From positions 128,001 to 192,000 of the forward strand of contig OY781945.1 of the NCBI GenBank assembly GCA_963677435.1: DNA of 64,000 nt, given 5' to 3'. Of the stretch, positions 28,786 to 46,057 are shown in pieces. The translations under genes were made by a program, and so were the position numbers. Every line of letters begins with the position of its first letter. Position 1 is the first letter of the stretch. The notes under the pieces are model-generated. The model was not told where the DNA came from and ran no database searches. It worked only from the letters and a program-made list of their open reading frames with translations. This stretch comes from an uncultured Aliarcobacter sp. (GTDB lineage Bacteria > Campylobacterota > Campylobacteria > Campylobacterales > Arcobacteraceae).

Positions 28786-28814
28786 AAACTGAACAAACAA
28801 GTTTTGTTCAGTTT
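28786..28814. terminator. bidirectional terminator between purT and the filament locus
   Basis: AAACTGAACAAA...TTTGTTCAGTTT. Confidence 0.7.
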
Positions 28815-29883
28815 ATATTTTTATTGTTAAAGAGTATTGCATTCCTTCATTGTCTATTGGTGTAATATCAATTTTTCCATTTATTGCATATGCTAAATTT
28901 TTTGCTTCTAATATTGTTTTATTATCAACATCTGATAAAAACAGACTATGAATATTTTTTATTTCAAATCCATTATTTTTCACAATAATTTGAATATTTG
29001 ATTTAGATACTAATACATTTACTTCAATTTGTTTTTGTATTTTCCCTTTTTTTAACTCTTTTTTTATTAAATCAATACAAGATTGTTCTATAAAACAAGA
29101 TAAAATATTTTCGAAATAAGCTTTATCTAAATATATAGGTTTACTTAAAGTAGTTTCAACATCATAATCTATAAAAATTTTATATCTTACATTTGCATAG
29201 ACAAAATTATCAGTTCTTCTTTTATGTAATTCTAAAATGTAATTAAGATTATTTAAATTTGTAATTTTCTCATTTTTATGATTTAAATTTAATATTTCAT
29301 ACTCAAATTTTTTTAATTCTTCATATTGTAAAGCATATGAGTCAATAATTTGGAAAATGATTGTACTATTAATTAAATCTTCAACACCTAATTTATTAAT
29401 ATATTTATCAAAGATATCAGTGTTAAACATATCAAGGTAATATTTAAGATTAAAAAGCCTATTCTTTAAATTTAAAAGATTATTTATATCTTTAAAATAC
29501 TTATTTTTTAACTCTTTGGATAATAAACTATTTTTTAAATTCAACTCAATCATTTTAATGAAATTCTCATCATCAAAAATTAAATTTGTTACTTCGACTT
29601 TTTGTGATTCACCACATAATAATAGGACTTCTTTTAATTGGTCTTTTACAATCGTTAACGACTCGTCTAAACATAAACTTATTTCAAAAATTGAAGGTTG
29701 TATATCCTCATGGTTTTCATTAAAAACTTGTCGATTTAATCTTGTTTTTCCACCATTTTCACTAGAAAAAATTTCTGCTATATTAAAAAATTTATTGTAT
29801 TTAACAATTAAAATTTTTAACTCATTTGATATTTTTTCTATATCAAATGCAACCCCTGATATATTTTCATATTTATTATCCAA
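28813..29883 (-). CDS. hypothetical protein with degenerate C-terminal HATPase_c (GHKL)-like domain
   Basis: IQIIVKNNGFEI..LF, AINGKIDI..EGMQYSLTI resemble a histidine-kinase ATPase fold; N and G2 boxes lost. Confidence 0.6.
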   Translation of the reverse strand: MDNKYENISGVAFDIEKISNELKILIVKYNKFFNIAEIFSSENGGKTRLNRQVFNENHEDIQPSIFEISLCLDESLTIVKDQLKEVLLLCGESQKVEVTNLIFDDENFIKMIELNLKNSLLSKELKNKYFKDINNLLNLKNRLFNLKYYLDMFNTDIFDKYINKLGVEDLINSTIIFQIIDSYALQYEELKKFEYEILNLNHKNEKITNLNNLNYILELHKRRTDNFVYANVRYKIFIDYDVETTLSKPIYLDKAYFENILSCFIEQSCIDLIKKELKKGKIQKQIEVNVLVSKSNIQIIVKNNGFEIKNIHSLFLSDVDNKTILEAKNLAYAINGKIDITPIDNEGMQYSLTIKI

Positions 29884-29892
29884 TTTTATATC

Positions 29893-30933
29893 CTACATAC
29901 AATTTGAATCGGTAGCAGTTACATTATTATCAATAATCTGAAGCCAATTATTTTCATTAGCAACCAGCATTACATCACCTGATTTTTTCTTATATATTGT
30001 ATCAAGTTGCACCCAATCTGATTTCTTTTGTTTTACTGTAAATTGATCATCTAATTTTAAAACTCTTAATATTTTGGCATTTAATTCATTAGAATTTCTA
30101 ACATTTAAATTTGATTTTTTTACTGTATATAAACAACTTGAATTCTCATTATTAGAACTTTTTGCTACAGGTATTTTTGAGTCTTCTTTAGTAGAAACTT
30201 GGGAAAAAGCTTTTTTTACAGAAGTTTCTTCTTTAATCATTGCTTTTATTTCTTCTTTTTTAGGAGTTTTTTCACTATCATTTTTTTCTTCAACCTTTGG
30301 AATTTTCTTTAAATCACTTACTGAAATTCCATAATTACTTAAATAAATAGTATAACCATACTCTTCATCAAGTTTTTTATATAACTCAACACTTTTTGTT
30401 CTTGTATTAATGCTTACTATTTTATGCTCTAAAATTGAATCTCCAACAATATATCTTCCTTCTATATTAGCGCTTAATTCGTTACTTAGAGTTTTTTTAG
30501 CAGTTACTGCTTCATCTTCAAGTTTTAATACAACATAATCTTTTCCATTAAAAGAGTACATACTTTTAATTTTTAAATCTTTTAATTTTTTTGTTCTTGT
30601 AAAATCTGTTGTAAGTCTTGCCATATCATTTTGGTGAGTAAATACATATTTTTCATAATCTTCTTGGGAAAGTTTTGGTTCTTCTTTTACAATTGTTTGT
30701 ACTTGTGGATTACTTGGATTAATCGTGTTTGTATCTTTTTTATTTTTTATCGCACTTACTTGTTCTTCTAAATAATCTTTTTGTAGTCCTGTAATTGCAT
30801 TAAAAAACTCTTTTGATTGTTTATCTAAAACATCTAACTTATCAGCATTTTGCATCTGAGTCTGAATTGATTCTTCTGCATGTAAATTAAGTGCCATAAA
30901 AAATAGAAATGTAACTAATTTTATTTTTTTCAT
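29893..30933 (-). CDS. exported PilP/GspC-like protein with C-terminal SH3b domain
   Basis: signal peptide, beta-rich YIVGDSI..HKIVSI segment, LNVRNS...DWVQL SH3b pattern. Confidence 0.6.
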   Translation of the reverse strand: MKKIKLVTFLFFMALNLHAEESIQTQMQNADKLDVLDKQSKEFFNAITGLQKDYLEEQVSAIKNKKDTNTINPSNPQVQTIVKEEPKLSQEDYEKYVFTHQNDMARLTTDFTRTKKLKDLKIKSMYSFNGKDYVVLKLEDEAVTAKKTLSNELSANIEGRYIVGDSILEHKIVSINTRTKSVELYKKLDEEYGYTIYLSNYGISVSDLKKIPKVEEKNDSEKTPKKEEIKAMIKEETSVKKAFSQVSTKEDSKIPVAKSSNNENSSCLYTVKKSNLNVRNSNELNAKILRVLKLDDQFTVKQKKSDWVQLDTIYKKKSGDVMLVANENNWLQIIDNNVTATDSNCM

Positions 30934-30951
30934 CTTTTCCCTTTTAAACTT

Positions 30952-33150
30952 TTATTTAAATATAAATTCATAATTAAATCCACCAATATATGTAGGATAT
31001 TTTATAAAGAATGGCCCTTTACTATCACTAGTCGTCCAATCACCTGATGTCATATTTGTAAGAAGATTATCTCCCCCTTCTGCAACTAAATAATCTTTAT
31101 TTATATCATATAAATTCGTATTAAATACAGGTATCATAAATGTATTACCAGTGGCATATCCAGATCTATAAAAAGATTGCATCCCCCAACAATACATTTG
31201 ATTATAAATATCAATTCCACACATTCCATTATCATCTTCAATAACTTTTATTTTTTTCCATTTAATTTTTGCTATTGAACTTTTAAATATTGTATCTGAA
31301 CGATTTTCACTAGTAAAATAATCTCCCTTTAATTCATTCTTTGAATTTATCCATACTATTCCATCCGAAGTAAAATCTACCCAAATTAATTCACTATCAT
31401 CCGCTTGCACATATTGAGAAGTATAACTTTTGATTTTTTCATTTACAGATTCTACAAGAGGCAAAGAACCCCATGGTTGACTTACTTTATAATATTTACC
31501 ATCTTCACCTTTTGCAACAAAAGCATTTAGTCCACCTTGAATTGATGTAAAAGAGATTGATGCTGATATTTTTAAAGGACTACATAGATTTACAGTTTTA
31601 TTACTTATTTTTTGAGAACAGTTATAATTTGAGTAAGTATCTAATCCCCAAATATAAATATCTCCACTATTAGATAATGCAGCTGTTTTTCTATAACCAA
31701 TTGTTAATAAATATGTAATATCTTTAAATAAAACTTTTGTATTATTTTCTGTTACTACTAATTCAGTTGGATTATTATAATTATTATAATAATTACTTCC
31801 ACCTCCTGAAAAGCCTGCATAATCATATCCCCATCGGTAAATTTTACCATCTTTATAATCACCATTTGCATCTATACTTGTATTGCCAAGCATTAACCAA
31901 ATTTGATTATTAGCAAATATTTTTGTTGCTTTTCTATCTGTAGTTCCATCAAAATAATTACTTCTATAAAACATTTCAGGTGGATTTCTTACATTGTCTG
32001 TATTAAGGTCTGTATACATTGAACTTTTATCACTTGCAGTTACTCCTCCACAATAAAGTTCTCCTTTTATTGATACCCCACAAGTACCATGGTAAACTGT
32101 ACTAAAAAAATCAACAAACTTAGGTCGTAATGGTGAAGAAAAATAGTTTTTATCATCTAATGCACTATTATATGTTTTAACCTTTGCTCTTACAAGTCCT
32201 GTAATTACTGGATATCTATTTGAAGAACCAGTATTTCCACTACCTTTTGTATATTTTTCTATATCTATTCCCGTTACTTTATTTGCATTATTTCCCCAAG
32301 TATAAATATCTCCATTTACAATCATCCCACCTGCTCTTCTTGTAAATTGAATTACAGTTTTCCCAATATCTCTTGTTTTAGAATTTACTTTAATAATACC
32401 ATTACTATTTCCAAGATTTATGTATTCACCAGCTGTATCTTCTGCTTTGTGAATAATTGTTTCACCTGAATATAAAACATTCTTATTAAGCATTAAAGCC
32501 TTAAATTCATCTGTTTTATTCCCATTTAAATCTAACATATTTACATTCTCATCAACAATTAAATCTTTGTTTATTGAGAATTTATATTTTCCTGATTCGT
32601 ACCAATGAAGAATGTTATTTGTATCTAAATAATATTTACCTGAAGCAGTACCAATTGCTGTATTTTTTGTTGTTGTAATACTGTTTTTATTTGTATATAT
32701 AAATTTTTCTTTTGTTGATAAAATAATTTCAACATTATTATTATTTATACCCATAGGTGCTTTTGTATTTACCCTATTTGTATTTGTATAATAATAATCA
32801 TATAAATTTGATTTTAATTTTAAATCTGTTGTCAAAAAATTTTCAAGTTCATGTTTATCATCTTTTATATCAAGGGGCAAAATATTTTCATCAATTTTTA
32901 ATTTCATTTGTTTACCAAAAGGATTAATTTCATTAAATCCCTTTGGTAAATAATTTGCATTTTTTAATTCTAAAATTGTTGTAGGATTTACCCCTTTATC
33001 TAAAATATATTTTTTATAAGCTGTTGCGATTTCTTCTTCTTTTTGTACAAGTTTTTTGATTTTTGTTAAAGTTAATGAATCAATATAATTATCACTTGCA
33101 AAAATATTCAAAGAAAGAAAAAATAAAATTAATATTCTAAATGAAAACAC
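30952..33150 (-). CDS. exported pilin-head/RCC1-like beta-propeller protein (putative adhesin 2)
   Basis: signal peptide; GDIYTWGNN, GELYCGG, IYRWG, GDIYIWG, MYCWG blades. Confidence 0.7.
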   Translation of the reverse strand: MFSFRILILFFLSLNIFASDNYIDSLTLTKIKKLVQKEEEIATAYKKYILDKGVNPTTILELKNANYLPKGFNEINPFGKQMKLKIDENILPLDIKDDKHELENFLTTDLKLKSNLYDYYYTNTNRVNTKAPMGINNNNVEIILSTKEKFIYTNKNSITTTKNTAIGTASGKYYLDTNNILHWYESGKYKFSINKDLIVDENVNMLDLNGNKTDEFKALMLNKNVLYSGETIIHKAEDTAGEYINLGNSNGIIKVNSKTRDIGKTVIQFTRRAGGMIVNGDIYTWGNNANKVTGIDIEKYTKGSGNTGSSNRYPVITGLVRAKVKTYNSALDDKNYFSSPLRPKFVDFFSTVYHGTCGVSIKGELYCGGVTASDKSSMYTDLNTDNVRNPPEMFYRSNYFDGTTDRKATKIFANNQIWLMLGNTSIDANGDYKDGKIYRWGYDYAGFSGGGSNYYNNYNNPTELVVTENNTKVLFKDITYLLTIGYRKTAALSNSGDIYIWGLDTYSNYNCSQKISNKTVNLCSPLKISASISFTSIQGGLNAFVAKGEDGKYYKVSQPWGSLPLVESVNEKIKSYTSQYVQADDSELIWVDFTSDGIVWINSKNELKGDYFTSENRSDTIFKSSIAKIKWKKIKVIEDDNGMCGIDIYNQMYCWGMQSFYRSGYATGNTFMIPVFNTNLYDINKDYLVAEGGDNLLTNMTSGDWTTSDSKGPFFIKYPTYIGGFNYEFIFK

Positions 33151-33641
33151 TATTTAATCTCCTTTGGCATTGATATATAATCCACAAAATAAATAGTCTC
33201 ATTTTGATCGTGTTTTTTGATTTTTCCAATATATGATAAAATTCCCAAAGCAGCTTGTAATCCATTCTCACTTTGAGCTGTTACTTGTGTTACAATTAAA
33301 TATCTATCAACACACATTTTTTTTGAATCTAGATATTTTAGCTGATAGTCAAACACTGACATTCTTGAAAAAATATCTTTCACTTTTGTTTCAAGTTCAT
33401 CTTTATTTATATACTCTTTTTCAACTGTTTCTATTTTCTTTTTTGATAACTCAACTTGTTTTTTTAAATTATCTGTTTGCGCTTTTTTTTCTTGTAATAC
33501 AATAGTTAAACTATCTTTTTCATAAGCGATTTTGAAATAAAGTACAGTTTTATATATTAAAAATCCAACTGAATATACTACTAAAGTAAATATACAAATT
33601 TTAGTAATTTTAGAGAGAGTTTTATTACTTATACTAATCAT
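33150..33641 (-). CDS. bitopic membrane protein, PilN/PilO/GspM-like
   Basis: single TM, coiled coil, small alpha/beta domain; position in the locus. Confidence 0.5.
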   Translation of the reverse strand: MISISNKTLSKITKICIFTLVVYSVGFLIYKTVLYFKIAYEKDSLTIVLQEKKAQTDNLKKQVELSKKKIETVEKEYINKDELETKVKDIFSRMSVFDYQLKYLDSKKMCVDRYLIVTQVTAQSENGLQAALGILSYIGKIKKHDQNETIYFVDYISMPKEIK

Positions 33642-34393
33642 TTTAAAACCTCATTTTTATTGCTAATACATTGGGTTAACTCTAAGTATTCTTTTTCACT
33701 CTTATTTAATAAAATCTCTTGTCTTTTTGCTAATTGGCCTTCAATTCTAATTTCTTGATTTAAATTATCTAAAGATTGCTGTTCAAACAATTTTGAAGTT
33801 AATAATTCTAATCCAAAAAATATTGTCCAAAAAACAAAACCTAATATAAAAATTGAATAAAACATTTTTACACTATGTGATTTAAAAGTATCAAGTTCAT
33901 TAAGTGGTTTTACTAAGTCATTAATTTCCCCTAATGATTTAGCAACTACTTCATTTTTTTCATTTTTTGTATTTTGTCTTAAAATATTTTCAACGGCACT
34001 TTTATATTTTGAATTTATTACATAATATATATTTTCAATTGCTCCACCACTTGAAAGCATTGCAATATGTTTTGTAATTAATATAGATTTTATCATATCA
34101 TCTGTAATAAAGTTTTGGTTTATTTTTGCTGAATATACAGTTTTGTGATTAAATAAAATCACATACTCATTTTCTGCAATATGTATCAAAAACTGATTTC
34201 TTCCCAAATGTTTTTTTGATAAAAGATTTAAAGAATATACTTCTTCATTTGTATCATATTTAGAAAGAAATACACTATATTTTTTAAAAGAGTTATATGT
34301 AAACATATTTTGCTCAGAAGCAAACTCATCATTTAAATAAAATGTTTCATTTAAATCTTTTGATGCAAAATCTGTTATTACTAATCGTACCAT
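33638..34393 (-). CDS. bitopic membrane protein, PilM-N/GspL-like alignment subunit
   Basis: cytoplasmic N-domain, one TM, periplasmic coiled coil; directly after the ATPase. Confidence 0.45.
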   Translation of the reverse strand: MVRLVITDFASKDLNETFYLNDEFASEQNMFTYNSFKKYSVFLSKYDTNEEVYSLNLLSKKHLGRNQFLIHIAENEYVILFNHKTVYSAKINQNFITDDMIKSILITKHIAMLSSGGAIENIYYVINSKYKSAVENILRQNTKNEKNEVVAKSLGEINDLVKPLNELDTFKSHSVKMFYSIFILGFVFWTIFFGLELLTSKLFEQQSLDNLNQEIRIEGQLAKRQEILLNKSEKEYLELTQCISNKNEVLK

Positions 34394-36072
34394 ACTTCCT
34401 CCCCTCTAATGATTGCAATTGCATCATCTTTTGTAATAAGTCCTTCATGATATTGAGCCATACAAGCTTTTTCTACAGTCATATATTCAGCAGGGTTTTC
34501 AAAATCTCCACCATGACCTATTTTAAACCTTACAACCTCAGCAATAGGTACCCTGTCTTTAAATCCTGTATGGTTACACTCATCACAACCAACTTTTTTA
34601 AATCCACCTTCTCCATCTTCTTCTTTACAAAATTTGCATAACTTTCTAACTAATCTTTGAGATACAATTCCTCTTAAGTTATCTATAATATCCCCTTCAT
34701 TAATTCCAAGAGAACTTGTCATCCTAGATACCGTTGCAGGTGCAGAGTTTGTATGCATTGTAGAGAATACTAACTGACCTAAGTTTGATGCATTTACAAG
34801 TTGTGAAGCCGTTTGAGGCTCTCTTGTTTCCCCAATCAGAATAATATTTGAATCTTGTCTTAAGATATCAACAACAGCTTCAGGGTAACCATATTTAAAT
34901 TCATCACTTGCACTTGCAAACTCAGATAAATCAATTTGGAAAAATGATTCATCCACATACTCAACAGGATCTTCAATAGTAATAACATATTGTTGTTGTT
35001 TTGCCAATTGTTGTAAAAGTGCATACATCAAGTGAGTTTTCCCTGATCCAACTTGACCTGTAATTAATATCATTCCATTTGCATATTTTGTTAAATTTGA
35101 TAAGATATCAACTGTTTCTTGTGGATAATTTAATCCTCTCAAGTTGTGTGAAACAACTCCTCGTCCACCAATCATCCTCATAACTAATGAAAAATTTAAT
35201 TTTGAGTTTATAAGCCCAAGTCTAAATTTAATATTTTTTTTACCATATTCATAATTTATAACCCCATTGATTGATTCATAATCTGAATCTTCTTGGTCAG
35301 CCATGGTTACCAATCTTCTTTTGATAGTTTTAGCAATTGTTATTGGCATTGTTCCCATATCAACTTTGATACCATCTATTCTAAACCATAAAGATGCATA
35401 TCTACTTGTTTTTTGAATATGTATATCAGATGCTCCAAGTAAAATAGCTTGTCCCATCATTTTGTCAAAATATTTATTTATCTCTTCATCATTTTCTGTG
35501 TCACTATTTGAATTAAAGATAATCTCTCTATCTTCCCCAAATACAGAAGATAAAACACCCTCTCCTAAAACAACTATTTTTGTAAAATAAAATTTACTCA
35601 AAACTTCAAAATCAAGATTTACAACATCTCTTATACCTAAAACTTTGTTTTTTATTTTTTTGTCTTCTAATGTAATTATATACATCGTTGTACATAGTTC
35701 TAGTTTCTTTTCATCTAATTGAAATGATGTATCTTGATAATGTTTTGACAATTCATTATAACTAGCATAATATTCATAACCTAAAGTTTTTACGAATTGT
35801 TCATATTTCTCTTCATTTGCCATTAAATCACCGTATCCACCTTTTAGCTGGAACTTCTCTTTAATAACATCTTCAATTAATATTGCAAGTTGAGTATCTA
35901 TATCTTCACTTTTTCCTAAAAATTCTAAAAATTTATTTTTTTGCTTCTCAAAAATAGCTTTATAATCTGTAGTTTTTGAGATTAGATGTTTTTTATTCTT
36001 TTGATTATTCTGATTTTTCAAAAAAGAAAATTTAGGGACATTTTTAAATGTAGCAAGAATTTTTTTAATCAT
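34381..36072 (-). CDS. PilB/GspE-family extension ATPase
   Basis: ASDIHI, FRIDG, Walker A GQVGSGKT, TIEDPVEY, LRQD..IILIGE, STMHTNSA, SQRLVRKLC, CxxC/CxxC Zn site. Confidence 0.93.
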   Translation of the reverse strand: MIKKILATFKNVPKFSFLKNQNNQKNKKHLISKTTDYKAIFEKQKNKFLEFLGKSEDIDTQLAILIEDVIKEKFQLKGGYGDLMANEEKYEQFVKTLGYEYYASYNELSKHYQDTSFQLDEKKLELCTTMYIITLEDKKIKNKVLGIRDVVNLDFEVLSKFYFTKIVVLGEGVLSSVFGEDREIIFNSNSDTENDEEINKYFDKMMGQAILLGASDIHIQKTSRYASLWFRIDGIKVDMGTMPITIAKTIKRRLVTMADQEDSDYESINGVINYEYGKKNIKFRLGLINSKLNFSLVMRMIGGRGVVSHNLRGLNYPQETVDILSNLTKYANGMILITGQVGSGKTHLMYALLQQLAKQQQYVITIEDPVEYVDESFFQIDLSEFASASDEFKYGYPEAVVDILRQDSNIILIGETREPQTASQLVNASNLGQLVFSTMHTNSAPATVSRMTSSLGINEGDIIDNLRGIVSQRLVRKLCKFCKEEDGEGGFKKVGCDECNHTGFKDRVPIAEVVRFKIGHGGDFENPAEYMTVEKACMAQYHEGLITKDDAIAIIRGEEVWYD

Positions 36073-36083
36073 ATTTCATCTTC

Positions 36084-37100: not shown

Positions 37101-37102
37101 TA

Positions 37103-38761: not shown

Positions 38762-38773
38762 AACATTATTTCC

Positions 38774-41700
38774 TTATTTAAAATAAAATGGATAATCAAA
38801 TCCGCCAATATATGTGGGGTATTCTAAAAACAAACTTCCATTATTGTTATACTCATCAAAAGCCATTTGTACATTTTTTTCACTCTCTTGAGAAATAAAT
38901 AATTTATTTATAGTACTTATTTTAGCAACATCATACAAAGAAGTACTTAAAATTGGAATACTTCTTCCAACATTTCCCCAACAATACATTTGAGATGAGC
39001 TTCCAAGGCCAGTCATTGAACAAATATATGGAACAGTTCTAGTATTTGAACCATTTGAACTTGAACCAGCAGATGAACTACTTTTATTTCCTGTAAGAGT
39101 AAATAATATATTATCCACCCCCCATGAAACAGAATCTATATTTGCATCTTTTATATATGCTCCAAATCCTAATTTTATATTTCCAAATTCATCTAAGTTT
39201 TCTGTTCTTGTAAAATGAAATTTTCTATCTTCAGTATTTCCAGTATTATCAATTTTATTTAATTTGCTAGAAGATACATTATCATCCATAGAATATGTTA
39301 AATATTTTGTTCCATTTATAAAAGTGTAAAATCTATCTATTGTATACCAAATATTATATCTCCAGTCATCAATTCTATAAAAATCATACTCAATAGTTAC
39401 CTCTTTATTTGCATACTCTGATCCAAAGCTAAATACTTTATACACTTCTTCTGAACCATCACTTTCCCCTTGATAATTCGATAAACCCCAAGATTTTCTA
39501 TTAAATCTTCCTAAAAATTTTGTTGCTGTTCCACTATCTGTATAAATTGGATAGTTATAAAATGGATCAGAAGTTGAAGTATAAGGAACTGGACCTTTTG
39601 GTACGATCCAATAATCATGATTTGAATTTTCAAAATTTTCAAAATAAGTTCCACTTGAAAAAGTTGCATTATCTATTTGTCTACTAATCCTTATATTATC
39701 GATTCCAAAAGATTCATTTGTATAATCTTCTCCTAAAACTGCACCAAAACCTAAAGTTGATTTTCCATTTGAATCTAATGTTGTACTAAATGTATAACTA
39801 TGTTTTTGTCCCGTTTGATTCCCTGTATTAGATATTATTCCTAAATCAACTCCAGCTTTTGTATCATAAACATTATTACCTGAATACATATCGGATTGAA
39901 CTAAATTATTATTTATATAAACATAAAATTTCTCAGGAAGTCCATTTGGTCCTCTCCATACTGAATCATCCCCATCCCATGAACCTATCTCATACATATC
40001 AAATGTGATTTTTACATTTTGATTTGCCCATGAACTACCTAAACTAAATGTTTTTTTTACAACTTCACTTCCATCATCTGTTGCAATTCTATTTCTTCCC
40101 AACATTCCTAAAAATTTACTAGCAGTTAATCCTCCATCATGAATATAACTTACATTCCATCCAGAAGTTGAGCTATTTTCAAAATTTTCAACATAATCTT
40201 CTCCATAATCAGCCACTGTTTGATTAATTGTTGATCCAAAAATCGAGATATTTGAGAAATTTGCATATAAATTATTATTTATAGTATTTGTTAAACTATT
40301 AAGTTCATTCATAGCTGATGTAAAAACTGCATTTTCACTACTTGAACAGCTATTAAAATCTTTATCTTTGCAATTTAAAAATTCACTAGAAGCTTGAAGT
40401 TGCATATTTTTATCAATATAAATTAATATTTCTTTAGTCCCATAATCATAGATTGAAGCACTTAATGCACTTCCATCAATTCCTAAATCTTTTATACTTA
40501 AATCTGAATAAGTTCTAAAATATCTATTGTCAACACTCTTAAGAACAAACTCTTTGCTATTTACAAAAATTCCATTTTCATTAAATTTTTTTGAATTTGA
40601 TAAAATTATTGGTTTGTTATAAATTGTACCATTTGGTCTTTCTCCCCAAATCCAAAAATAATTTTGTTCATCTAAAGCACCAAAACATTTTATATCTCTT
40701 AATGCGTAAATCTTTTTAAAAACTTGTCCATTTGTATTTATTACCGTTGGTTCACTTACGGATAAAGTATAATTATCATTTCCAATACCTAATGCCCCTT
40801 TTTCATTTGAGCCAACAGTATAAATTTTACCTGAATCTGATAATGCAGCCCAAGTTCCATCAACCATAACTATATCTTTTAAATAAATTGCATTTGAATT
40901 GTAAATTCCATTCTCTTTTCCAGCTGCTACAACTTTATTTTTTCTTAATATAGAAGTTTCTGTTTGTCCATTTGTATCCAAATAAAAACTATCTGAATTA
41001 ACTGAACCATTACAATATAAATCTCCACCATATTTTTTTGTTGTACCTGCTTCATAATAATCAAAAATAGGAGATATACCACAAACATTTTTATTATTCA
41101 TCGCAACTTTTTCAAATTTAACTCTATAAGGATTGTTGTACCATTTTTTACTAATTAAATCTTGACTCTCAATATTTTCAATCTGTACTTTTAACATTAC
41201 AGGAGTATTTACATAATCTGGCTTTAAATTAGTATCCATCTGACCATAATTTTCAATTCCAGCTTTTTTATATTTATTATCACCCCAACAAAAGATATCC
41301 CCATTTGCAAGCATACAGCCACCATTTATTCTTAAAACTAAATCTTTTGAATCGGGGATGTAAGATAAAATTCTATCAGCAATACTCAACTCACTATCAT
41401 TTTGAGTTAGTGCATCACCCATTCCTGATGGTACCCAATTTTGTGTATCCACATCACCTTGATAATAATATTCATACCAAGAATTATTTTTTTTAACAAA
41501 TGCTTTATCTCCTATATTTGCTTTTACGAATTGCAAGTCATCCCAATTTTCAAGATAAATAGGAGCATCTTGGTATACATCAAATGAATATGTACTTCTA
41601 CAATATTTATATGTTAGTTTTCCATTATTCAACTGATAAAAATAATTATCAGTTGTACACTGTTGATTTGATTGTTTTATATCTTTGTGGTTTGTTTCGT

Positions 41701-42172
41701 TTAAAATTGAAACAATCTGCTTTTGTATATCATTGTATAAAACCTGAGAGCCTATAACTAATTTTTCTTTTGTTATATTTGAAGGAGGTATTGTATTTAC
41801 TCTAAATACTTTATTTATGTAAAAATTATATAAATAATTATACTCAGAATTATAATCCTTCTGATCTTCGATAACTCCCTGAATATAGGCACTATTTTTA
41901 TTATCAAAAGTAACTTTTATATTTTTAGATGTAATGGGATTAAGTTTATTAAAATTAACCCCTAGATATTCTGCTGTTTCTAATTTTTCCCAATCTAAAC
42001 TTTTATCACTTAATTTTGGAATAGTTGCCGTTTGTGCAATATATTTATTTATTGCCAAAGATATATATTCCTCTTTTTGAATAACATCTTTTATATTATT
42101 CATTAAAGATATATTTTCACTTGAAGAAAAAGAAAAATTTATAAAAATTAGTAAAAGAATTAGAGTTTTGAT
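38774..42172 (-). CDS. large exported pilin-head/RCC1-like propeller protein with two internal beta-sandwich repeats (putative adhesin 1)
   Basis: GDIFCWGDN, GKIYTVGSN..GALG, MYCWG; ORF track starts at 42103 but the frame is open to 42172 and encodes a signal peptide. Confidence 0.72.
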   Translation of the reverse strand: MKTLILLLIFINFSFSSSENISLMNNIKDVIQKEEYISLAINKYIAQTATIPKLSDKSLDWEKLETAEYLGVNFNKLNPITSKNIKVTFDNKNSAYIQGVIEDQKDYNSEYNYLYNFYINKVFRVNTIPPSNITKEKLVIGSQVLYNDIQKQIVSILNETNHKDIKQSNQQCTTDNYFYQLNNGKLTYKYCRSTYSFDVYQDAPIYLENWDDLQFVKANIGDKAFVKKNNSWYEYYYQGDVDTQNWVPSGMGDALTQNDSELSIADRILSYIPDSKDLVLRINGGCMLANGDIFCWGDNKYKKAGIENYGQMDTNLKPDYVNTPVMLKVQIENIESQDLISKKWYNNPYRVKFEKVAMNNKNVCGISPIFDYYEAGTTKKYGGDLYCNGSVNSDSFYLDTNGQTETSILRKNKVVAAGKENGIYNSNAIYLKDIVMVDGTWAALSDSGKIYTVGSNEKGALGIGNDNYTLSVSEPTVINTNGQVFKKIYALRDIKCFGALDEQNYFWIWGERPNGTIYNKPIILSNSKKFNENGIFVNSKEFVLKSVDNRYFRTYSDLSIKDLGIDGSALSASIYDYGTKEILIYIDKNMQLQASSEFLNCKDKDFNSCSSSENAVFTSAMNELNSLTNTINNNLYANFSNISIFGSTINQTVADYGEDYVENFENSSTSGWNVSYIHDGGLTASKFLGMLGRNRIATDDGSEVVKKTFSLGSSWANQNVKITFDMYEIGSWDGDDSVWRGPNGLPEKFYVYINNNLVQSDMYSGNNVYDTKAGVDLGIISNTGNQTGQKHSYTFSTTLDSNGKSTLGFGAVLGEDYTNESFGIDNIRISRQIDNATFSSGTYFENFENSNHDYWIVPKGPVPYTSTSDPFYNYPIYTDSGTATKFLGRFNRKSWGLSNYQGESDGSEEVYKVFSFGSEYANKEVTIEYDFYRIDDWRYNIWYTIDRFYTFINGTKYLTYSMDDNVSSSKLNKIDNTGNTEDRKFHFTRTENLDEFGNIKLGFGAYIKDANIDSVSWGVDNILFTLTGNKSSSSAGSSSNGSNTRTVPYICSMTGLGSSSQMYCWGNVGRSIPILSTSLYDVAKISTINKLFISQESEKNVQMAFDEYNNNGSLFLEYPTYIGGFDYPFYFK

Positions 42173-42928
42173 TTAATCCACCTTTAATATTTGTATACTA
42201 TTTGCTACATCAACAAGTTTTATATATTTAGAAACATCTTTAATATATATGTATGACCCTACTGATAAATCAACTATTTTAGGTTCATTAACTAAAACAC
42301 CTGCACTCATGGAAGTTGTGATATTCCCTTTATTAAATTCAATTTTACTATATTCAATCCATTGGGAACTAGCGTTATACCAACGAAAAGTTTTTTGATT
42401 ATTATTACAATATGTATTTATTAAATTTGAACTGCACACTTTTTGTATAGTGTAATTATTTGATAATAGATTAAATATAGTTTTTGCCTCATCACTTTGT
42501 AATTTAATTTCAACATATGATTTATCTAAATCAACTTTCGAATTACTATCTTTTACAAAATACACACTTGTAAAATCTCTATATAAATCTCTGTTATAAA
42601 GTTGTGCAACATACTTATCTGTATTTCTATATTCATCTTTTGTTATTAGATATTTTATTTTTAACTCTTTTGTATTTAGAAAATCTATATCTATTCCCAT
42701 TTTATTTATTTTTGAAAAATTACTTCCTAAATAATCATCAGTTATTAAATTATCTATTGTTGGTAATTTGAATTCAGTTAAAATATATTTTTCAAAGTTT
42801 TTTGCAATATTCTCTTCTATCTCAATTAAATTTTGTACATATAATGTATTTTGATTTTGAGCTAGTAAATTATCATCTGCATTTAAATAAAAGCAAAAAA
42901 TGAAAATTGAGAAAATACTTTTTATCAT
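42173..42928 (-). CDS. exported pilin-head-like protein
   Basis: Sec signal (YLNA), EE.IA..FEKYI...KLPT..L...YLG shared with three paralogues. Confidence 0.6.
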   Translation of the reverse strand: MIKSIFSIFIFCFYLNADDNLLAQNQNTLYVQNLIEIEENIAKNFEKYILTEFKLPTIDNLITDDYLGSNFSKINKMGIDIDFLNTKELKIKYLITKDEYRNTDKYVAQLYNRDLYRDFTSVYFVKDSNSKVDLDKSYVEIKLQSDEAKTIFNLLSNNYTIQKVCSSNLINTYCNNNQKTFRWYNASSQWIEYSKIEFNKGNITTSMSAGVLVNEPKIVDLSVGSYIYIKDVSKYIKLVDVANSIQILKVD

Positions 42929-43647
42929 TTTAAAGCCTCTATTCCTGTTGTAGTTTTAACATATTTCACACCTGCTGTATCATAAATCAAAGCACCTTTG
43001 GGAATAGAATTAAACTCATTTTCAGTTAGATGCTTAGAAGTATCACTTGTAATAACAATTGGTCCTGTTTTAAATTTATCAATATGATAACAAATTAAAT
43101 AATCAGTTATTTCACCTGAAGTATAGGTAGGTTTTATATAAATATGGCTATCTTTAATACAAGCTTTATCAGAATTGCTTGAGATACAAGTCCCAATTTC
43201 TTTATTTGTATTATTATTTAATGCAATTAAATCAAACAATTGTTTTGCAAAAATATCTTCTAAAATAAAATAAACAGCCCCACTTCTTACATAAGTTCTT
43301 TTTCTATAATTGTCACCCTCATATAAATTTTTTATACCTGAATCACTTGCCAATTCATTCCCTAAAGAATAACTCATTTTAGTTATACCAGATGTTAATG
43401 TTGTAACATTTACTTTATTAGTATCAATAGTAATAAATGAAGTAATTCCTCCACCTAAAAGTGTGTTTATATTCGCCATTGTAGGAAGTTTATAATTATT
43501 CAAAAGATACTCTTCATATGTTCTAGCAACTGATTCTTCATATTGAACTATATTTTTGACATTTTCCAAAGTTTCTTGTCTTTGTTCAAATGTTTCACTT
43601 TGAAGAAAAGAGAAACTAATAATTAAAAATAGAATAAATTTAATCAT
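42925..43647 (-). CDS. exported pilin-head-like protein
   Basis: Sec-type signal, EESVARTYEEYL...KLPT; ATGA coupling on both sides. Confidence 0.6.
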   Translation of the reverse strand: MIKFILFLIISFSFLQSETFEQRQETLENVKNIVQYEESVARTYEEYLLNNYKLPTMANINTLLGGGITSFITIDTNKVNVTTLTSGITKMSYSLGNELASDSGIKNLYEGDNYRKRTYVRSGAVYFILEDIFAKQLFDLIALNNNTNKEIGTCISSNSDKACIKDSHIYIKPTYTSGEITDYLICYHIDKFKTGPIVITSDTSKHLTENEFNSIPKGALIYDTAGVKYVKTTTGIEALK

Positions 43648-44402
43648 AATTCATCTTTTAGTTGATAATATAGCTTTGTTTCAGCAGCTGTTTCATTTAA
43701 ATAAAGTTTATCTTTAATCTTTGATTTAAAGTAATCTATTTTTCTATTTTTTAATACCGTTTCATTCAAAGTACTATCCAATGATATTTCAGTTGTTGTT
43801 CTAAAATCTTGATACATTTTATCATAAGGAATAAAATTATTATCATCATTTAAAAGCTTTGATAAAGTTTCTGATACTGTTTTATCTGAATATAAGATTT
43901 CAACTTCTAAGAAATGAATTGCTCTATTTACACTATTTTCAATCTGTTTGTCAGATAAAATTTCATTTTTATTATTTTCACCAATATTAATAGTATATTT
44001 TTTTGTTTCTTCATCAAAAGAAAGAGTATTTACATCTGTAATGTTTTTTAATTTTGCTTTTAAGGCTAGAAGTTTTAACTTTTCATCTTGACTTATTTCA
44101 ATATTTCCAGCACTATTCACTAGCTCTTTATTTGTTAAAGTGCTATTTTTATTTCTATCAAGTAATAAAACTTTTTCCCAATTTTCACCTTTTGGTAAAT
44201 TGGCAATTATTTCATCTCTTGTAATATCTTGGGGATTTTTGTTGTATTGCTTGGCTAAAAGTGTTTTGATTTCTGAGATTATTTCATAGTTTTCTTGGAT
44301 TTGTTTTGCTTCTTGAACATCACTATATGATTTGTACATAGCAGATGCTGAAAATATAGCTGTAACAATAAGAGCAGACGATAGCCATATATTTCCAAAC
44401 AT
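43644..44402 (-). CDS. pilin-like protein with N-terminal hydrophobic helix
   Basis: hydrophobic N-helix followed by amphipathic EIISEIKTLL helix. Confidence 0.5.
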   Translation of the reverse strand: MFGNIWLSSALIVTAIFSASAMYKSYSDVQEAKQIQENYEIISEIKTLLAKQYNKNPQDITRDEIIANLPKGENWEKVLLLDRNKNSTLTNKELVNSAGNIEISQDEKLKLLALKAKLKNITDVNTLSFDEETKKYTINIGENNKNEILSDKQIENSVNRAIHFLEVEILYSDKTVSETLSKLLNDDNNFIPYDKMYQDFRTTTEISLDSTLNETVLKNRKIDYFKSKIKDKLYLNETAAETKLYYQLKDEL

Positions 44403-44435
44403 TAATAAAAACCCTTCAAAAAAAGAAACTTAAAA

Positions 44436-44517
44436 TAAAAACTAAATACTATTGAGTTTTTAGTACTTAGTTTTTAGTTTATAAAAAAATAAACACTTAG
44501 GCTAAAGCCTAAATGTT
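44436..44517 (-). terminator. two hairpins downstream of the putative major pilin
   Basis: AACACTTAGGC-taaa-GCCTAAATGTT (44492-44517) followed by a U-tract on the minus strand; second imperfect inverted repeat 44436-44476. Confidence 0.65.
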
Positions 44518-44521
44518 AAAA

Positions 44522-45172
44522 TTATAATACTGTACCTAAATCTTTAAAATATATTGTAAATATACCATCACCTAAAGATGCAGCATCTGATTTAACTGTA
44601 CCTGCTGCTCCAGTTGTGTCTAAAACAGTTGCAGGTCGATTTGCTTTAGGAACTTCTCCATCAGCTAAAGCAACTGGACTACCATCAGTTGTTGTTCTAT
44701 CTGTAGATGCTTGAGATGCTAAATCTGAAGAAATCTGTCCTTCTAAAAATGCCGCATTAGTCGCTAATCCATTAAGTAACTCAACTCTAAGTCCTGGTAC
44801 TGAACCTGCACCATTTAAAATTAAAGAAATATTCATTCCTGGGTTAGTTTTTCCACCAAAAGAAATTGCAGAATATGTATTTACTTCACCTGTTGCAAAA
44901 TTAGTTGAGGCAGCTGTTTTATTATCTTTAAGCTGTTCATTAATTTGTTTTGAGAAATATCCAAGATTTGCTAAATCTTTTAATGTTACACCTGCTTTAA
45001 GTTCACCTGTTTTAATTGCAACAATTAAATCACCCCTAATATTATTGATTTCTGTCATTACACTTGTTTTTTGTGCAACACCTTCAATTTTATCACCTGT
45101 TCCACCAAATGTTTGGAACATATAAATCATTGCTCCAACTACTACGATTACCATTGCTATCAACTGTGGCAT
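44522..45172 (-). CDS. putative major pilin-like subunit lacking a class III leader
   Basis: AAGGA RBS, MPQLIAMVIVVVGAMIYMF N-helix, TEINNIR..LKDLANLGYF, Gly/Ala/Thr-rich head. Confidence 0.6.
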   Translation of the reverse strand: MPQLIAMVIVVVGAMIYMFQTFGGTGDKIEGVAQKTSVMTEINNIRGDLIVAIKTGELKAGVTLKDLANLGYFSKQINEQLKDNKTAASTNFATGEVNTYSAISFGGKTNPGMNISLILNGAGSVPGLRVELLNGLATNAAFLEGQISSDLASQASTDRTTTDGSPVALADGEVPKANRPATVLDTTGAAGTVKSDAASLGDGIFTIYFKDLGTVL

Positions 45173-45220
45173 ACTTCTATCCTTTTTGTTAAGTTAAATT
45201 TCTTAGACCTTTAGGTCGGT

Positions 45221-45226
45221 ATTATA
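45221..45226 (-). promoter_or_regulatory. -10 box for the putative major pilin
   Basis: TATAAT on the minus strand about 50 nt upstream of ATG 45172. Confidence 0.5.
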
Positions 45227-45252
45227 CTACAACTTCTTTTAGTTGCACCAAT

Positions 45253-45840
45253 TTACTTGAATACTATACAAACAAAAAGCCCATCATTGTTTGTACCATC
45301 TTCTTTAAAATCTTCTGTTCCAACTGTAGAATCATAAGATTTCCCATTTGTCTGAAAAGTTCCAAAAAGCAACTTTTCACAAAATTCTCTTCCCGAAAAA
45401 CTTTCTGAAAAGATTGCCTTACTCATCAAACTTCCATTTGCACGCATATCAACTAAAAGTTTATATGCACTTCCAGCCGATGTTGCAAATTTTGCATCTG
45501 TACTTAGAACTGGAATCATCTGCCAAACTACTGAACTTGATGGGAATGTTAATTTTGAAGCTTTTGCAGAACCTTTAACATTATCAGTAGATGATGCAGT
45601 TGGTTTTGTCATTTTTATATTTCCTGACAAAATACCAGCATCATACAATACTTCAAAATTAATATCTGATAAACTTCCACCAGATTGGATATATGTATTT
45701 ACATATCCATCAATAACTAAAAACATTGACTTCATTCTATCAAGTTCAGCAGTGATAGAACTATTATCAGATTCATATCTTGTAAGCAAAATAACTGTTG
45801 CCGCAACAATAGCAAGTAGTGAGGATACAAGATAGGGCAT
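45253..45840 (-). CDS. pilin-like protein lacking a class III leader
   Basis: AAGGA RBS before ATG 45840 (MPYLVSSLLAIVAATVILL), LYDAGIL, C-terminal Cys pair. Confidence 0.58.
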   Translation of the reverse strand: MPYLVSSLLAIVAATVILLTRYESDNSSITAELDRMKSMFLVIDGYVNTYIQSGGSLSDINFEVLYDAGILSGNIKMTKPTASSTDNVKGSAKASKLTFPSSSVVWQMIPVLSTDAKFATSAGSAYKLLVDMRANGSLMSKAIFSESFSGREFCEKLLFGTFQTNGKSYDSTVGTEDFKEDGTNNDGLFVCIVFK

Positions 45841-46057
45841 TTTTTTCCTTAAGTAGATATATTCTAACTTCAAATTTATTCTAACATAAGACGCATTAAA
45901 AATTAACTTAAAAAGTTATAATTTAATTATTTTTCTATTATCTTTAGTTACAGGCTTTGTAATTATTGCCTTTATTTATGAATTAATTATTCTTATTTTA
46001 TTACTTTTCTCAAAATTTAAGAAATTAAGTACATATAAATTTTTTAGTATAAATAAA

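What the first reader, a model, noticed from the sequence alone, without database searches (positions are those of the whole stretch)
28813..45840. Atypical 14-gene type IV filament-like machine without classical prepilins, prepilin peptidase or retraction ATPase
Seen: one co-oriented minus-strand cluster with tight or overlapping junctions. It encodes a lipoprotein secretin, a PilC/GspF-like platform, a PilB/GspE ATPase, two bitopic alignment-like proteins, a PilP-like/SH3b protein, three pilin-like proteins, four Sec-signal paralogues (two fused to propellers) and a degenerate HATPase. Known: type IV filament systems (T4aP, T4bP, MSH, T2SS, Tad, Com) use class III prepilins and an A24 peptidase, and lipoprotein secretins typify T4bP/MSH. 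Here no G|FxxxE prepilin, A24 peptidase or PilT is visible in the locus. Inference: a divergent, possibly undescribed branch of the superfamily in Arcobacteraceae.
Basis: partly seen in the sequence, partly recalled or inferred. Interest (0 to 1): 0.88.

Follow-up and report, generated by a model that had tools for sequence, protein, structure and literature searches.

The report
Type IVb-like pilus with leaderless pilins
A conserved 14-gene cluster in Arcobacter-family bacteria encodes a pilus-building machine related to type IVb pili, but its pilin subunits begin directly at the mature end, with no leader peptide for a prepilin peptidase to remove.

Summary
The cluster is real: 14 co-oriented minus-strand genes (28813-45840) with tight junctions. 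The same 14 genes occur in the same order in 8 fetched loci from 6 Arcobacteraceae genera, and 3 further loci hold reduced 8-9 gene forms.

The core is a type IV filament machine:
- a GspE/PilB-type ATPase;
- a PilC-like platform;
- a lipoprotein secretin whose profile matches the type IVb secretin BfpB (E 3e-20).

The putative major subunit g02 models as a type IV pilin, with the type IVb pilins CofA and TcpA as best structural matches. It starts MPQLIAM with no leader. An in-frame stop and a ribosome-binding site lie just upstream in 12 of 12 loci. The N-terminus is near-invariant and the C-terminal domain is hypervariable.

The four "Sec-signal paralogues" are also pilin-fold modules. Two carry RCC1-like propellers.

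The nearest related systems found, in other Arcobacteraceae, keep canonical G|FxxxE prepilins, so the leader was probably lost once.

An A24 peptidase exists elsewhere in the genome, beside a Cts-like competence gene set, and is near-universal in the family. Lack of PilT is normal for some type IVb pili.

The HATPase, PilP-like and third-pilin labels found no support.

Verdict: an undescribed, peptidase-independent variant of type IVb-like pili.

The parts
45253..45840 (-). g01: leaderless minor pilin-like protein (195 aa from the Met of MPYLVSS)
   Evidence: 13 of 14 relatives start directly at M-[P/A/G/F]-x-hydrophobic, with a stop 0-12 codons upstream. hhalign against the g02 family gives probability 88.9, E 2.4e-6 over 130 columns. 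The TTG at 45873 is probably not the start.
44522..45172 (-). g02: putative major pilin, leaderless (starts MPQLIAM)
   Evidence: M1 P2 L4 I5 A6 are invariant in 51 of 51 sequences. A stop 3-18 codons upstream plus a Shine-Dalgarno site occur in 12 of 12 loci. The AF2 model has pLDDT 86.5, with a helix at 2-55 followed by a beta-sheet. VIA-align gives CofA Z 8.0, TcpA Z 7.4, PilA1 Z 6.2, and 30 of the 50 listed rows are pilins or pseudopilins. Residues 1-46 are 90% identical on average and residues 47-216 are 47% identical.
44492..44517 (-). Terminator-like hairpin 5 nt after the g02 stop
   Evidence: An 11-bp stem is followed by a T-run. The region holds 5 such sites against 2.3 +/- 1.4 in shuffles.
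43644..44402 (-). g03: protein with an uncharged N-terminal hydrophobic segment; fold unknown
   Evidence: Hydrophobic segment at residues 5-23. It is conserved in 8 of 8 fetched 14-gene loci. hhalign found no relation to g01, g02 or g04/g05.
42925..43647 (-). g04: Sec-signal protein with a pilin-fold module
   Evidence: It aligns full-length with g05 in A4 and has a Sec-like N-terminus.
42173..42928 (-). g05: Sec-signal protein with a pilin-fold module plus a small C-terminal beta domain
   Evidence: The AF2 model has pLDDT 87.9. VIA-align over residues 1-145 gives C. difficile PilA1 Z 7.2, CofA Z 6.2, T. thermophilus PilA4 Z 6.2, EpsG Z 5.5 and TcpA Z 5.4; 17 of 50 rows are pilins. Foldseek found nothing.
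38774..42172 (-). g06: pilin-fold module fused to an RCC1-like propeller and further domains; probable ATC start at 42170-42172
   Evidence: Pfam RCC1 scores 30.3 against a cut-off of 21.7. A signal peptide is encoded in frame upstream of the first ATG. The N-terminal ~220 residues of such long proteins match the g04/g05 profile.
37103..38761 (-). g07: lipoprotein secretin of type IVb kind
   Evidence: Its profile hits BfpB (9u5s_A) at E 3.2e-20. NCBIfam MshL 1.2e-11 and PilN 5.8e-5 are both far below their cut-offs. Cys20 is invariant.
36084..37100 (-). g08: GspF/PilC-like platform protein
   Evidence: Its profile hits the PilC N-domain (2whn) at E 8.2e-5. It has 3 hydrophobic regions. It is 72-98% identical across genera.
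34381..36072 (-). g09: assembly ATPase of the GspE/PilB family
   Evidence: Pfam T2SSE 8.5e-66. Against PDB: GspE 3.8e-44, PilB 3.8e-39, PilT 2e-25. The Walker A motif and a CxxC...CxxC motif are visible in the translation.
33638..34393 (-). g10: bitopic protein with a ~180-aa cytoplasmic part, one TM segment and a short periplasmic tail
   Evidence: TM segment at 181-199. It overlaps the g09 stop by 13 nt. There is no Pfam hit and no PDB sequence hit.
33150..33641 (-). g11: bitopic protein with an N-terminal TM segment and a periplasmic domain
   Evidence: TM segment at 12-30. No family hit passes any cut-off.
30952..33150 (-). g12: pilin-fold module fused to an RCC1-like propeller
   Evidence: Pfam WD40_RLD at 3.7e-13, below the cut-off. 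Its N-terminus is paralogous to g04/g05. It carries the C-terminal motif YPTYIGGFNYEFIFK.
29893..30933 (-). g13: Sec-signal periplasmic protein with a C-terminal SH3_3 domain
   Evidence: SH3_3 scores 27.9 against a cut-off of 27. Shorter forms without the SH3 domain occur in reduced loci.
28813..29883 (-). g14: cytoplasmic protein of unknown family
   Evidence: 0 of 9 orthologues hit any HATPase family, and there is no PDB sequence hit. Reduced loci keep only a ~120-aa protein at this position.
28786..28814 (.). Bidirectional terminator-like hairpin at the end of the cluster
   Evidence: A 12-bp stem is followed by T-runs on both strands.

Best explanation
The cluster encodes a type IV filament machine of the type IVb kind: a lipoprotein secretin, a PilC-like platform, one PilB/GspE-type assembly ATPase and bitopic inner-membrane accessory proteins. 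I propose that it polymerises g02 into a surface pilus. g01, and perhaps g03, would act as low-abundance subunits.

Shown:
- g01 and g02 are translated without any leader.
- The residue after the initiator Met is in register with position +1 of mature pilins (P-Q-L-I-A against F-T-L-I-E).

Inferred:
- The initiator Met takes the place of the leader and is removed by methionine aminopeptidase, because the second residue is Pro, Ala or Gly in nearly all family members.
- Neither cleavage by an A24 prepilin peptidase nor Glu5 is therefore needed.
- The acidic stretch after the hydrophobic helix keeps the globular domain on the periplasmic side.

Four further pilin-fold modules (g04, g05, and the N-termini of g06 and g12) enter the periplasm through ordinary Sec signal peptides and so lack the hydrophobic alpha1-N segment. 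I infer that they dock at the pilus tip or are exported through the secretin, and that the two RCC1-like propellers serve as adhesins. This would be analogous to minor-pilin/PilY1 tips and to TcpF/CofJ export.

As in TCP and CFA/III, there is no retraction ATPase.
For: Machine:
- T2SSE 8.5e-66.
- The secretin profile matches BfpB at 3.2e-20.
- The platform profile matches PilC at 8.2e-5.
- The ATPase is closer to GspE/PilB than to PilT.

Pilin fold:
- The g02 model has pLDDT 86.5.
- Best matches are CofA Z 8.0 (160 aligned, rmsd 4.9) and TcpA Z 7.4 (168 aligned).
- 30 of the 50 listed rows are pilins or pseudopilins.
- TcpA residue 1 aligns with model residue 2.

Leaderless:
- The N-terminus is invariant in 51 of 51 sequences.
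- An upstream stop plus a Shine-Dalgarno site occur in 12 of 12 loci.

Major-subunit signs:
- The N-terminus is 90% identical and the rest 47%.
- g02 has 490 clusters at 90% identity against 86 for the platform.
- G+A+T residues make up 33% of g02 against 16% in the other 13 proteins.
- A terminator-like hairpin lies right after g02.
- A contig in an RNA library replaces the variable domain with 549 other letters between conserved flanks.

Linkage: g01 and g02 lie beside the secretin/platform/ATPase genes in 12 of 12 loci, including the 8-9 gene forms.

Evolution:
- Three related systems (22-33% identity in the core proteins) keep canonical prepilins, with TIGR02532 at 19.2 against a cut-off of 16.3.
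- On the ATPase tree, a 100/100 branch separates these 3 canonical systems from the 12 leaderless ones.

Sec modules:
- The g05 model matches pilins over residues 1-145.
- 0 of 125 family members carry a prepilin motif.

Lack of a retraction ATPase is known in TCP and CFA/III (PMC5207764).
Against: - No filament has been seen; polymerisation, Met removal and membrane topology are all inferred.
- Foldseek gave no hit at E<=0.001 for either model; the best was TcpA at E 0.066 for g02.
- VIA-align Z values of 6-8 are in the range the tool calls common for models without clear matches.
- hhalign did not link g01 or g02 to the canonical prepilins of the related systems (P 0.0095 to 0.17).
- The genome does hold an A24 peptidase and two canonical prepilins.
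- The peptidase is present in 149 of 151 family genomes, so co-occurrence cannot show independence from it.
- Pilin modules without alpha1-N have no known way into a filament.
- g10, g11, g13 and g14 have no assigned family.
Confidence: 0.65

Rival explanations
1. It works as a type II-secretion-like exporter. g01 to g03 form a short periplasmic pseudopilus that pushes the Sec-delivered proteins g04, g05, g06 and g12 through the secretin, and no long surface pilus is made.
For: Four proteins with ordinary Sec signal peptides are encoded in the operon. Type IVb systems are reported to export operon-encoded Sec proteins (TcpF, CofJ; abstracts in the search listing for PMC9565799 and PMC6048534). 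There is no retraction ATPase. The ATPase scores slightly higher against GspE than against PilB.
Against: The secretin is of the BfpB lipoprotein kind and gives no PF00263 hit. The g02 globular domain is hypervariable, with allelic replacement, which fits surface exposure better than a periplasmic piston. Every T2SS equivalog model scores far below its cut-off. The two readings are not exclusive.
Confidence: 0.2
2. The machine polymerises canonical prepilins encoded elsewhere and processed by the orphan A24 peptidase. g01 and g02 are membrane accessory proteins with a pilin-like shape.
For: The genome has an A24 peptidase and two canonical prepilins at C1:2167830 and C1:2477509.
Against: The genome also holds a second ATPase and platform, and two canonical secretins, which fit a Cts-like competence set and would use those prepilins. 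g01 and g02 travel with the machinery in 12 of 12 loci. g02 shows the conserved-N/variable-C pattern and the composition of a major subunit.
Confidence: 0.08
3. The cluster is a decaying remnant that no longer makes anything.
For: Only 29 of 151 family genomes match the platform. g06 lacks a standard start codon in this genome. One genome (G065) has the platform match in two pieces.
Against: All 14 frames are open. The order is kept in 8 of 8 fetched 14-gene loci from 6 genera. ATPase and platform are 72-88% identical across genera. The catalytic motifs of the ATPase are intact. Contigs of RNA libraries cover g01 to g03 of related strains (DNA carry-over is not excluded).
Confidence: 0.04

Closest known systems
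Type IVb pili of enteric bacteria (EPEC Bfp, V. cholerae TCP, ETEC CFA/III)
   Same: Lipoprotein secretin related to BfpB. The pilin fold is closest to CofA and TcpA. There is one assembly ATPase, one platform and a compact operon. There is no retraction ATPase, as in TCP and CFA/III. Operon-encoded Sec proteins accompany the machine.
   Different: There is no leader peptide, no Gly-1 and no Glu5. No prepilin peptidase gene lies in the operon. Seven pilin-fold or pilin-like genes are present, against the single minor pilin of TCP and CFA/III. Four of them carry Sec signals, and two are fused to RCC1-like propellers. Core proteins share no more than weak profile-level similarity.
Related systems in other Arcobacteraceae (loci L028, L029, L030)
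   Same: The core is shared: lipoprotein secretin, platform, two bitopic proteins and ATPase, at 22-33% identity. Pilin C-termini are similar (DG-x-hydrophobic...F). One genome, G014, holds both kinds.
   Different: Their pilins carry canonical KKG|(F/I)TLIE leaders that score as N_methyl/TIGR02532. Gene order differs, and an SLT transglycosylase gene is present.
Type IVa minor-pilin/PilY1 tip complex (recalled, not tested)
   Same: A beta-propeller protein with a Sec signal is associated with a set of low-abundance pilin-fold proteins.
   Different: Here the propeller is RCC1-like and is fused directly to a pilin-fold module. That module has a Sec signal instead of a class III signal.
TcpF/CofJ export by type IVb pili
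   Same: Sec-dependent proteins are encoded in the pilus operon, and an N-terminal region shared by the paralogues could serve as a docking signal.
   Different: No sequence or fold relation was tested. The proteins here are pilin-fold modules. My knowledge of TcpF/CofJ comes from abstracts in a search listing and from recall.
Campylobacter Cts competence system (name recalled)
   Same: It belongs to the same phylum and is a type II/IV-like machinery using an A24 peptidase and canonical pseudopilins.
   Different: In this genome it is a separate, scattered gene set: ATPase and platform at C1:1.10 Mb, prepilins at 2.17 and 2.48 Mb, and the peptidase at 0.53 Mb.

Membership tests
Type IV filament superfamily | GspE/PilB-family hexameric assembly ATPase | tested here: met
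   PF00437 at 8.5e-66, 222 bits against a cut-off of 24.9. PDB GspE 3.8e-44.
Type IV filament superfamily | GspF/PilC polytopic platform protein | tested here: met
   The profile of 15 homologues hits the PilC N-domain at E 8.2e-5. 6 of 86 homologues have a precomputed PF00482. The window protein alone has no Pfam hit.
Type IV filament superfamily | Subunit with the type IV pilin fold (long N-terminal helix packed on a beta-sheet) | tested here: met
   The g02 model has pLDDT 86.5. 30 of the 50 listed VIA-align rows are pilins or pseudopilins, with a top Z of 8.0. Foldseek gave no significant hit.
Type IV filament superfamily | Class III signal peptide (charged leader, Gly-1, Phe/Met+1, Glu+5) | tested here: not met
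   None of the 14 proteins has an N_methyl/TIGR02532 hit. g02 starts MPQLIA in 51 of 51 sequences. An upstream stop occurs in 12 of 12 loci.
Type IV filament superfamily | Dedicated A24 prepilin peptidase | tested here: not met
   None lies in the locus. One orphan copy sits elsewhere, between uppS-like and lptF-like genes. Whether it acts on this system could not be tested.
Type IVb pilus | Outer-membrane lipoprotein secretin of the BfpB/TcpC/PilN kind | tested here: met
   BfpB at E 3.2e-20 over profile positions 159-506. The lipobox Cys is invariant. The NCBIfam PilN model scores 21.8 against a cut-off of 288.
Type IVb pilus | Type IVb pilin architecture rather than type IVa | tested here: inconclusive
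   CofA (Z 8.0) and TcpA (Z 7.4) rank first, but C. difficile PilA1 follows at 6.2. The differences are near the tool's tie margin.
Type IVb pilus | Long leader peptide and an operon-encoded peptidase | tested here: not met
MSH pilus | MshL-type secretin at equivalog level | tested here: not met
   TIGR02519 scores 44.2 bits against a cut-off of 250.2.
Type II secretion system | GspE and GspD at equivalog or family level | tested here: not met
   TIGR02533 scores 196 against a cut-off of 630. PF00263 finds two secretins elsewhere in the genome but not g07.
RCC1-like beta-propeller | RCC1 repeats | tested here: met
   g06: PF00415 scores 30.3 against a cut-off of 21.7. g12: only PF25390 at 3.7e-13, below the cut-off.
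Histidine-kinase-like ATPase (g14) | HATPase_c/Bergerat-fold signature | tested here: inconclusive
   0 of 9 orthologues hit at E<=1 in Pfam, and there is no PDB sequence hit. No fold was predicted.

The most novel reading that the evidence does not exclude
This would be a natural diderm type IV pilus assembled without any prepilin peptidase. The initiator Met stands in for the leader. Its removal exposes a Pro, Ala or Gly N-terminus; an N-terminal Pro is a secondary amine, like N-methyl-Phe. Glu5 is dispensable. The filament is capped or decorated by pilin-fold modules that reach the periplasm through Sec without the hydrophobic alpha1-N, two of them carrying RCC1-propeller adhesins. If so, the class III signal peptide and the A24 peptidase are not obligatory features of the superfamily.
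Probability: 0.45. Interest if true: 0.85.

Novelty: new variant of a known kind. Interest (0 to 1): 0.78.

Why it matters
The class III signal peptide and its A24 peptidase are treated as defining, universal features of type IV filaments, and annotation pipelines find pilins through them. This is my recollection of the field, and I checked it against no paper.

Here a conserved, widespread system has dropped both while keeping the motor, the platform, the secretin and the pilin fold. Its closest relatives still have the canonical leader. That gives a natural before-and-after pair for asking three questions:
- What are the leader, N-methylation and Glu5 really for?
- How does a pilin enter the membrane and the filament without them?
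- What can pilin-fold modules without alpha1-N do?

It also shows that motif-based searches miss whole pilus systems. All g02 homologues that carry a source name are called 'hypothetical' or 'uncharacterized'. Arcobacteraceae include wastewater, marine and animal-associated species in which adhesion organelles are unknown.

Tried and rejected
- Foldseek against PDB gave no hit at E<=0.001 for either model.
- Complex prediction with three copies of mature g05 gave 'no answer' (score 0.00). I draw nothing from it.
- hhalign found no significant link in any of these comparisons: g01 or g02 against the canonical prepilins of the related systems (P 0.0095-0.17); g03 against g01, g02 or g04/g05; the Sec proteins of locus L029 against g04/g05.
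- The g10 profile and the g14 profile found nothing in PDB sequences.
- Co-occurrence of the cluster with the A24 peptidase is uninformative, because the peptidase is in 149 of 151 family genomes.
- The best plasmid hit of the ATPase (A. cryaerophilus pACRY43158, 28.9% identity) is a different, T2SS-like cluster with gspG.
- A BLAST self-comparison of g06 found no internal repeat at E<=1e-3, although two stretches starting ENFENS look alike by eye.
- Promoter-like sites are no more frequent than in shuffles (129 against 133).
- Summed contig depths in the RNA libraries cannot rank genes, by the tool's own warning, so I make no expression claim.
- The flagellar-motor preprint PMC11870540 concerns pilMNOPQ-type type IVa sets, not this cluster (passages read).
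- I did not run MacSyFinder/TXSScan or a phylogeny with named reference ATPases, because no named reference sequences were at hand.

Full report
**Observation.**

The window holds 14 co-oriented minus-strand ORFs between 28813 and 45873. Nine of the 13 junctions are between -13 and +18 nt. The larger gaps are 80 nt (g01-g02), 119 nt (g02-g03) and 69 nt (g05-g06).

A terminator-like hairpin sits 5 nt after the g02 stop, and a bidirectional one sits at the end of the cluster. The region has 5 such sites against 2.3 +/- 1.4 in shuffles.

The same 14 genes occur in the same order in 8 of 8 fetched loci with the full set. Together with the window these come from 6 genera of one family. Three further loci carry reduced forms:
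- L021 and L022 hold g01, g02, secretin, platform, ATPase, g10, g11, a short g13 and a short g14-like gene.
- L023 holds a similar set in another order.

The platform protein finds a match in 29 of 151 sampled family genomes, in 10 of 22 genera. Of these, 27 are of this type and 3 are of a more distant type; one genome has both.

In two same-genus genomes without the cluster, the flanking genes lie 2.4 and 5.3 kb apart instead of 17.5 kb. The cluster therefore behaves as one insertion or deletion at a conserved site.

**The machine.**

- **ATPase g09.** It is a GspE/PilB-family ATPase (Pfam T2SSE 8.5e-66). Walker A and a tetracysteine motif are visible in the translation. It is closer to GspE (3.8e-44) and PilB (3.8e-39) than to PilT (2e-25) among solved structures. 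It stays far below every NCBIfam equivalog cut-off: TfpB 198 against 850, GspE 196 against 630, PilB 192 against 676.
- **Secretin g07.** It has a lipobox whose Cys is invariant in 12 of 12 homologues. Its profile matches the type IVb secretin BfpB at E 3.2e-20. Pfam Secretin does not see it.
- **Platform g08.** It has no Pfam hit by itself, but its profile matches the PilC N-terminal domain at 8.2e-5.
- **g10 and g11.** Each has one membrane segment and no detectable family.
- **g13.** It has a Sec-like signal and an SH3_3 domain just over the cut-off.
- **g14.** I found no support for a HATPase: 0 of 9 orthologues hit, and there is no PDB sequence hit.

**The subunits.**

g02 begins MPQLIAMVIVVVGAM. 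Residues M1, P2, L4, I5 and A6 are invariant in 51 of 51 aligned homologues. In 12 of 12 loci an in-frame stop lies 3-18 codons upstream, with no start codon between, and a Shine-Dalgarno-like site precedes the ATG. The protein is therefore made without a leader.

Its AlphaFold2 model has pLDDT 86.5. It shows a helix over residues 2-55 packed on a beta-sheet.

In a search of about 48,000 representative chains the best matches were:
- the ETEC type IVb pilin CofA (Z 8.0, 160 aligned);
- TcpA (Z 7.4, 168 aligned);
- C. difficile PilA1 (Z 6.2).

Thirty of the 50 rows shown are type IV pilins or pseudopilins. Residue 1 of mature TcpA aligns with residue 2 of the model. Against this, Foldseek found nothing at E<=0.001 (best TcpA, E 0.066). 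The tool also warns that Z values of 7-8 are common for models without clear relatives. The weight therefore lies in the enrichment of pilins, not in any single score.

g01 is homologous to g02 (hhalign probability 88.9, E 2.4e-6). It too starts at M-P/A/G-x-hydrophobic in nearly all of the 14 relatives.

g02 has the marks of a major subunit:
- Residues 1-46 are 90% identical on average and residues 47-216 are 47% identical.
- It has 490 clusters at 90% identity, against 86 for the platform.
- It is rich in Gly, Ala and Thr.
- In one wastewater RNA library, a contig joins the conserved flanks across 549 other letters in place of the variable domain.

**The Sec-signal paralogues.**

g04 and g05 align over their full length. 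They share a conserved helix (EE-x-IA) and a Cys pair.

The g05 model has pLDDT 87.9. Over residues 1-145 it matches pilins: PilA1 Z 7.2, CofA Z 6.2, T. thermophilus PilA4 Z 6.2, EpsG Z 5.5 and TcpA Z 5.4. Seventeen of 50 rows are pilins. Foldseek again found nothing.

A profile search of 1.84 billion representatives found only 151 relatives. They include 34 long proteins whose first ~220 residues match the whole module. None of the 125 members of at least 140 residues has a prepilin motif. Of the 34 long proteins, 21 end in YPTYIGGF-x-Y-x-F-x-FK.

Their N-termini look like ordinary Sec signal peptides, with a basic start, 10-15 hydrophobic residues and a small residue at -1. The unrelated g13 has the same kind. 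g06 and g12 add RCC1-like repeats.

**Relatives and direction of change.**

Three loci from other genera (L028 to L030) have the same core at 22-33% identity. Their pilins carry canonical leaders (KKG|ITLIE, KKG|FTILE) that score as N_methyl/TIGR02532. Their platform and secretin reach or approach the Pfam cut-offs.

On an ATPase tree a 100/100 branch separates these 3 from the 12 leaderless systems (midpoint root only). The simplest reading is one loss of the leader in a type IVb-like ancestor.

Sequence alone does not prove that g01 and g02 descend from such prepilins (hhalign P 0.0095-0.17).

**The rest of the genome.**

Elsewhere the genome holds:
- one A24 peptidase with its N-terminal domain, lying between housekeeping genes;
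- a second ATPase, split by a TAA, next to a canonical T2SSF platform;
- two canonical prepilins;
- two canonical secretins.

This looks like the scattered Cts-type competence set of Campylobacter (name recalled). Only two T2SSE-family genes exist (three listed matches, two of them the halves of the split second ATPase), so there is no PilT. The peptidase is present in 149 of 151 family genomes, so its presence says nothing about this cluster.

**Mechanism proposed.**

Shown: a type IVb-like motor, platform and secretin; leaderless pilin-fold subunits; Sec-exported pilin-fold modules; conservation and linkage.

Inferred:
- g02 is inserted with its N-terminus in the cytoplasm. The flank after the helix is acidic.
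- The initiator Met is removed by methionine aminopeptidase, since Pro, Ala and Gly at position 2 permit this (recalled specificity).
- The ATPase and platform lift the subunit into a filament that leaves through the secretin.
- g01 primes or caps the filament.
- The Sec modules dock at the tip or are exported, presenting the propellers as adhesins.

Retraction, if any, would be passive, as in TCP (PMC5207764).

**Comparison and novelty.**

The system works like a type IVb pilus, but it fails two features that are usually treated as defining: the class III signal peptide and a dedicated peptidase.

I found no paper describing it. Searches for Arcobacter with pilus, secretin, pilin and type II secretion terms, and for leaderless or peptidase-independent pilins, gave nothing relevant.

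Earlier AI notes of this scan report leaderless pilins in other phyla. I did not test these. They suggest the phenomenon may recur, and they are not independent support.

I rate this a new variant of a known kind, with interest 0.78.

Noticed in passing
window 42104-42172: g06 has no ATG, GTG or TTG before its signal peptide. The 23 codons directly after the g05 stop encode IKTLILLLIFINFSFSSSENISL in frame, so translation probably starts at ATC. Locus L017 shows the same pattern, while other orthologues start with Met.
   Followed up: partly
G000:C1:1102233-1103250 (L031:7949-9269): The genome's second GspE-family ATPase, next to a canonical T2SSF platform, is split by one TAA into 317-aa and 130-aa ORFs. 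It may be a pseudogene of a Cts-like competence system.
   Followed up: partly
L031:4740-5312: An ORF beside that locus matches only the C-terminal part of Mg_chelatase (profile positions 115-201) plus Mg_chelatase_C. A ComM-like gene may be truncated or frameshifted here.
   Followed up: no
window 38774-39500, 30952-31000, 45253-45300, 44522-44570: The C-termini of g06 and g12 (YPTYIGGF-x-Y-x-F-x-FK), g01 (DGLFVCIVFK) and g02 (DGIFTIYFKD) share a G-aromatic...F-K ending. The pilins of the related canonical systems also end DG-x-hydrophobic...F. The meaning is unknown.
   Followed up: partly
window 44403-45037: A contig of a wastewater RNA library joins the flanks of g02 across 549 other letters. 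This is an allelic replacement of the variable pilin domain in a related strain.
   Followed up: partly
G014 (L023 and L030): One genome carries both a reduced leaderless system and a related system with canonical prepilins.
   Followed up: partly
G065:C1:755286-757618: The platform match is in two pieces about 1.3 kb apart, so the gene may be interrupted in that genome.
   Followed up: no
L021:3230-4606 and L022:14464-15585: Reduced loci carry an extra, longer (373-458 aa) leaderless g01-like protein starting MPF(L/I), encoded beside the cluster.
   Followed up: no
L058 (NZ_CP032824.1 65528-86835): Plasmid pACRY43158 of Aliarcobacter cryaerophilus carries a separate T2SS-like cluster annotated with gspG, an F-family platform, a secretin and GspE. 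The ATPase is 28.9% identical to g09.
   Followed up: partly
window 38774-42103: g06 is 1109 aa here against 895-972 aa in 8 orthologues. Two stretches starting ENFENS look duplicated by eye, but a BLAST self-comparison found no repeat at E<=1e-3.
   Followed up: partly
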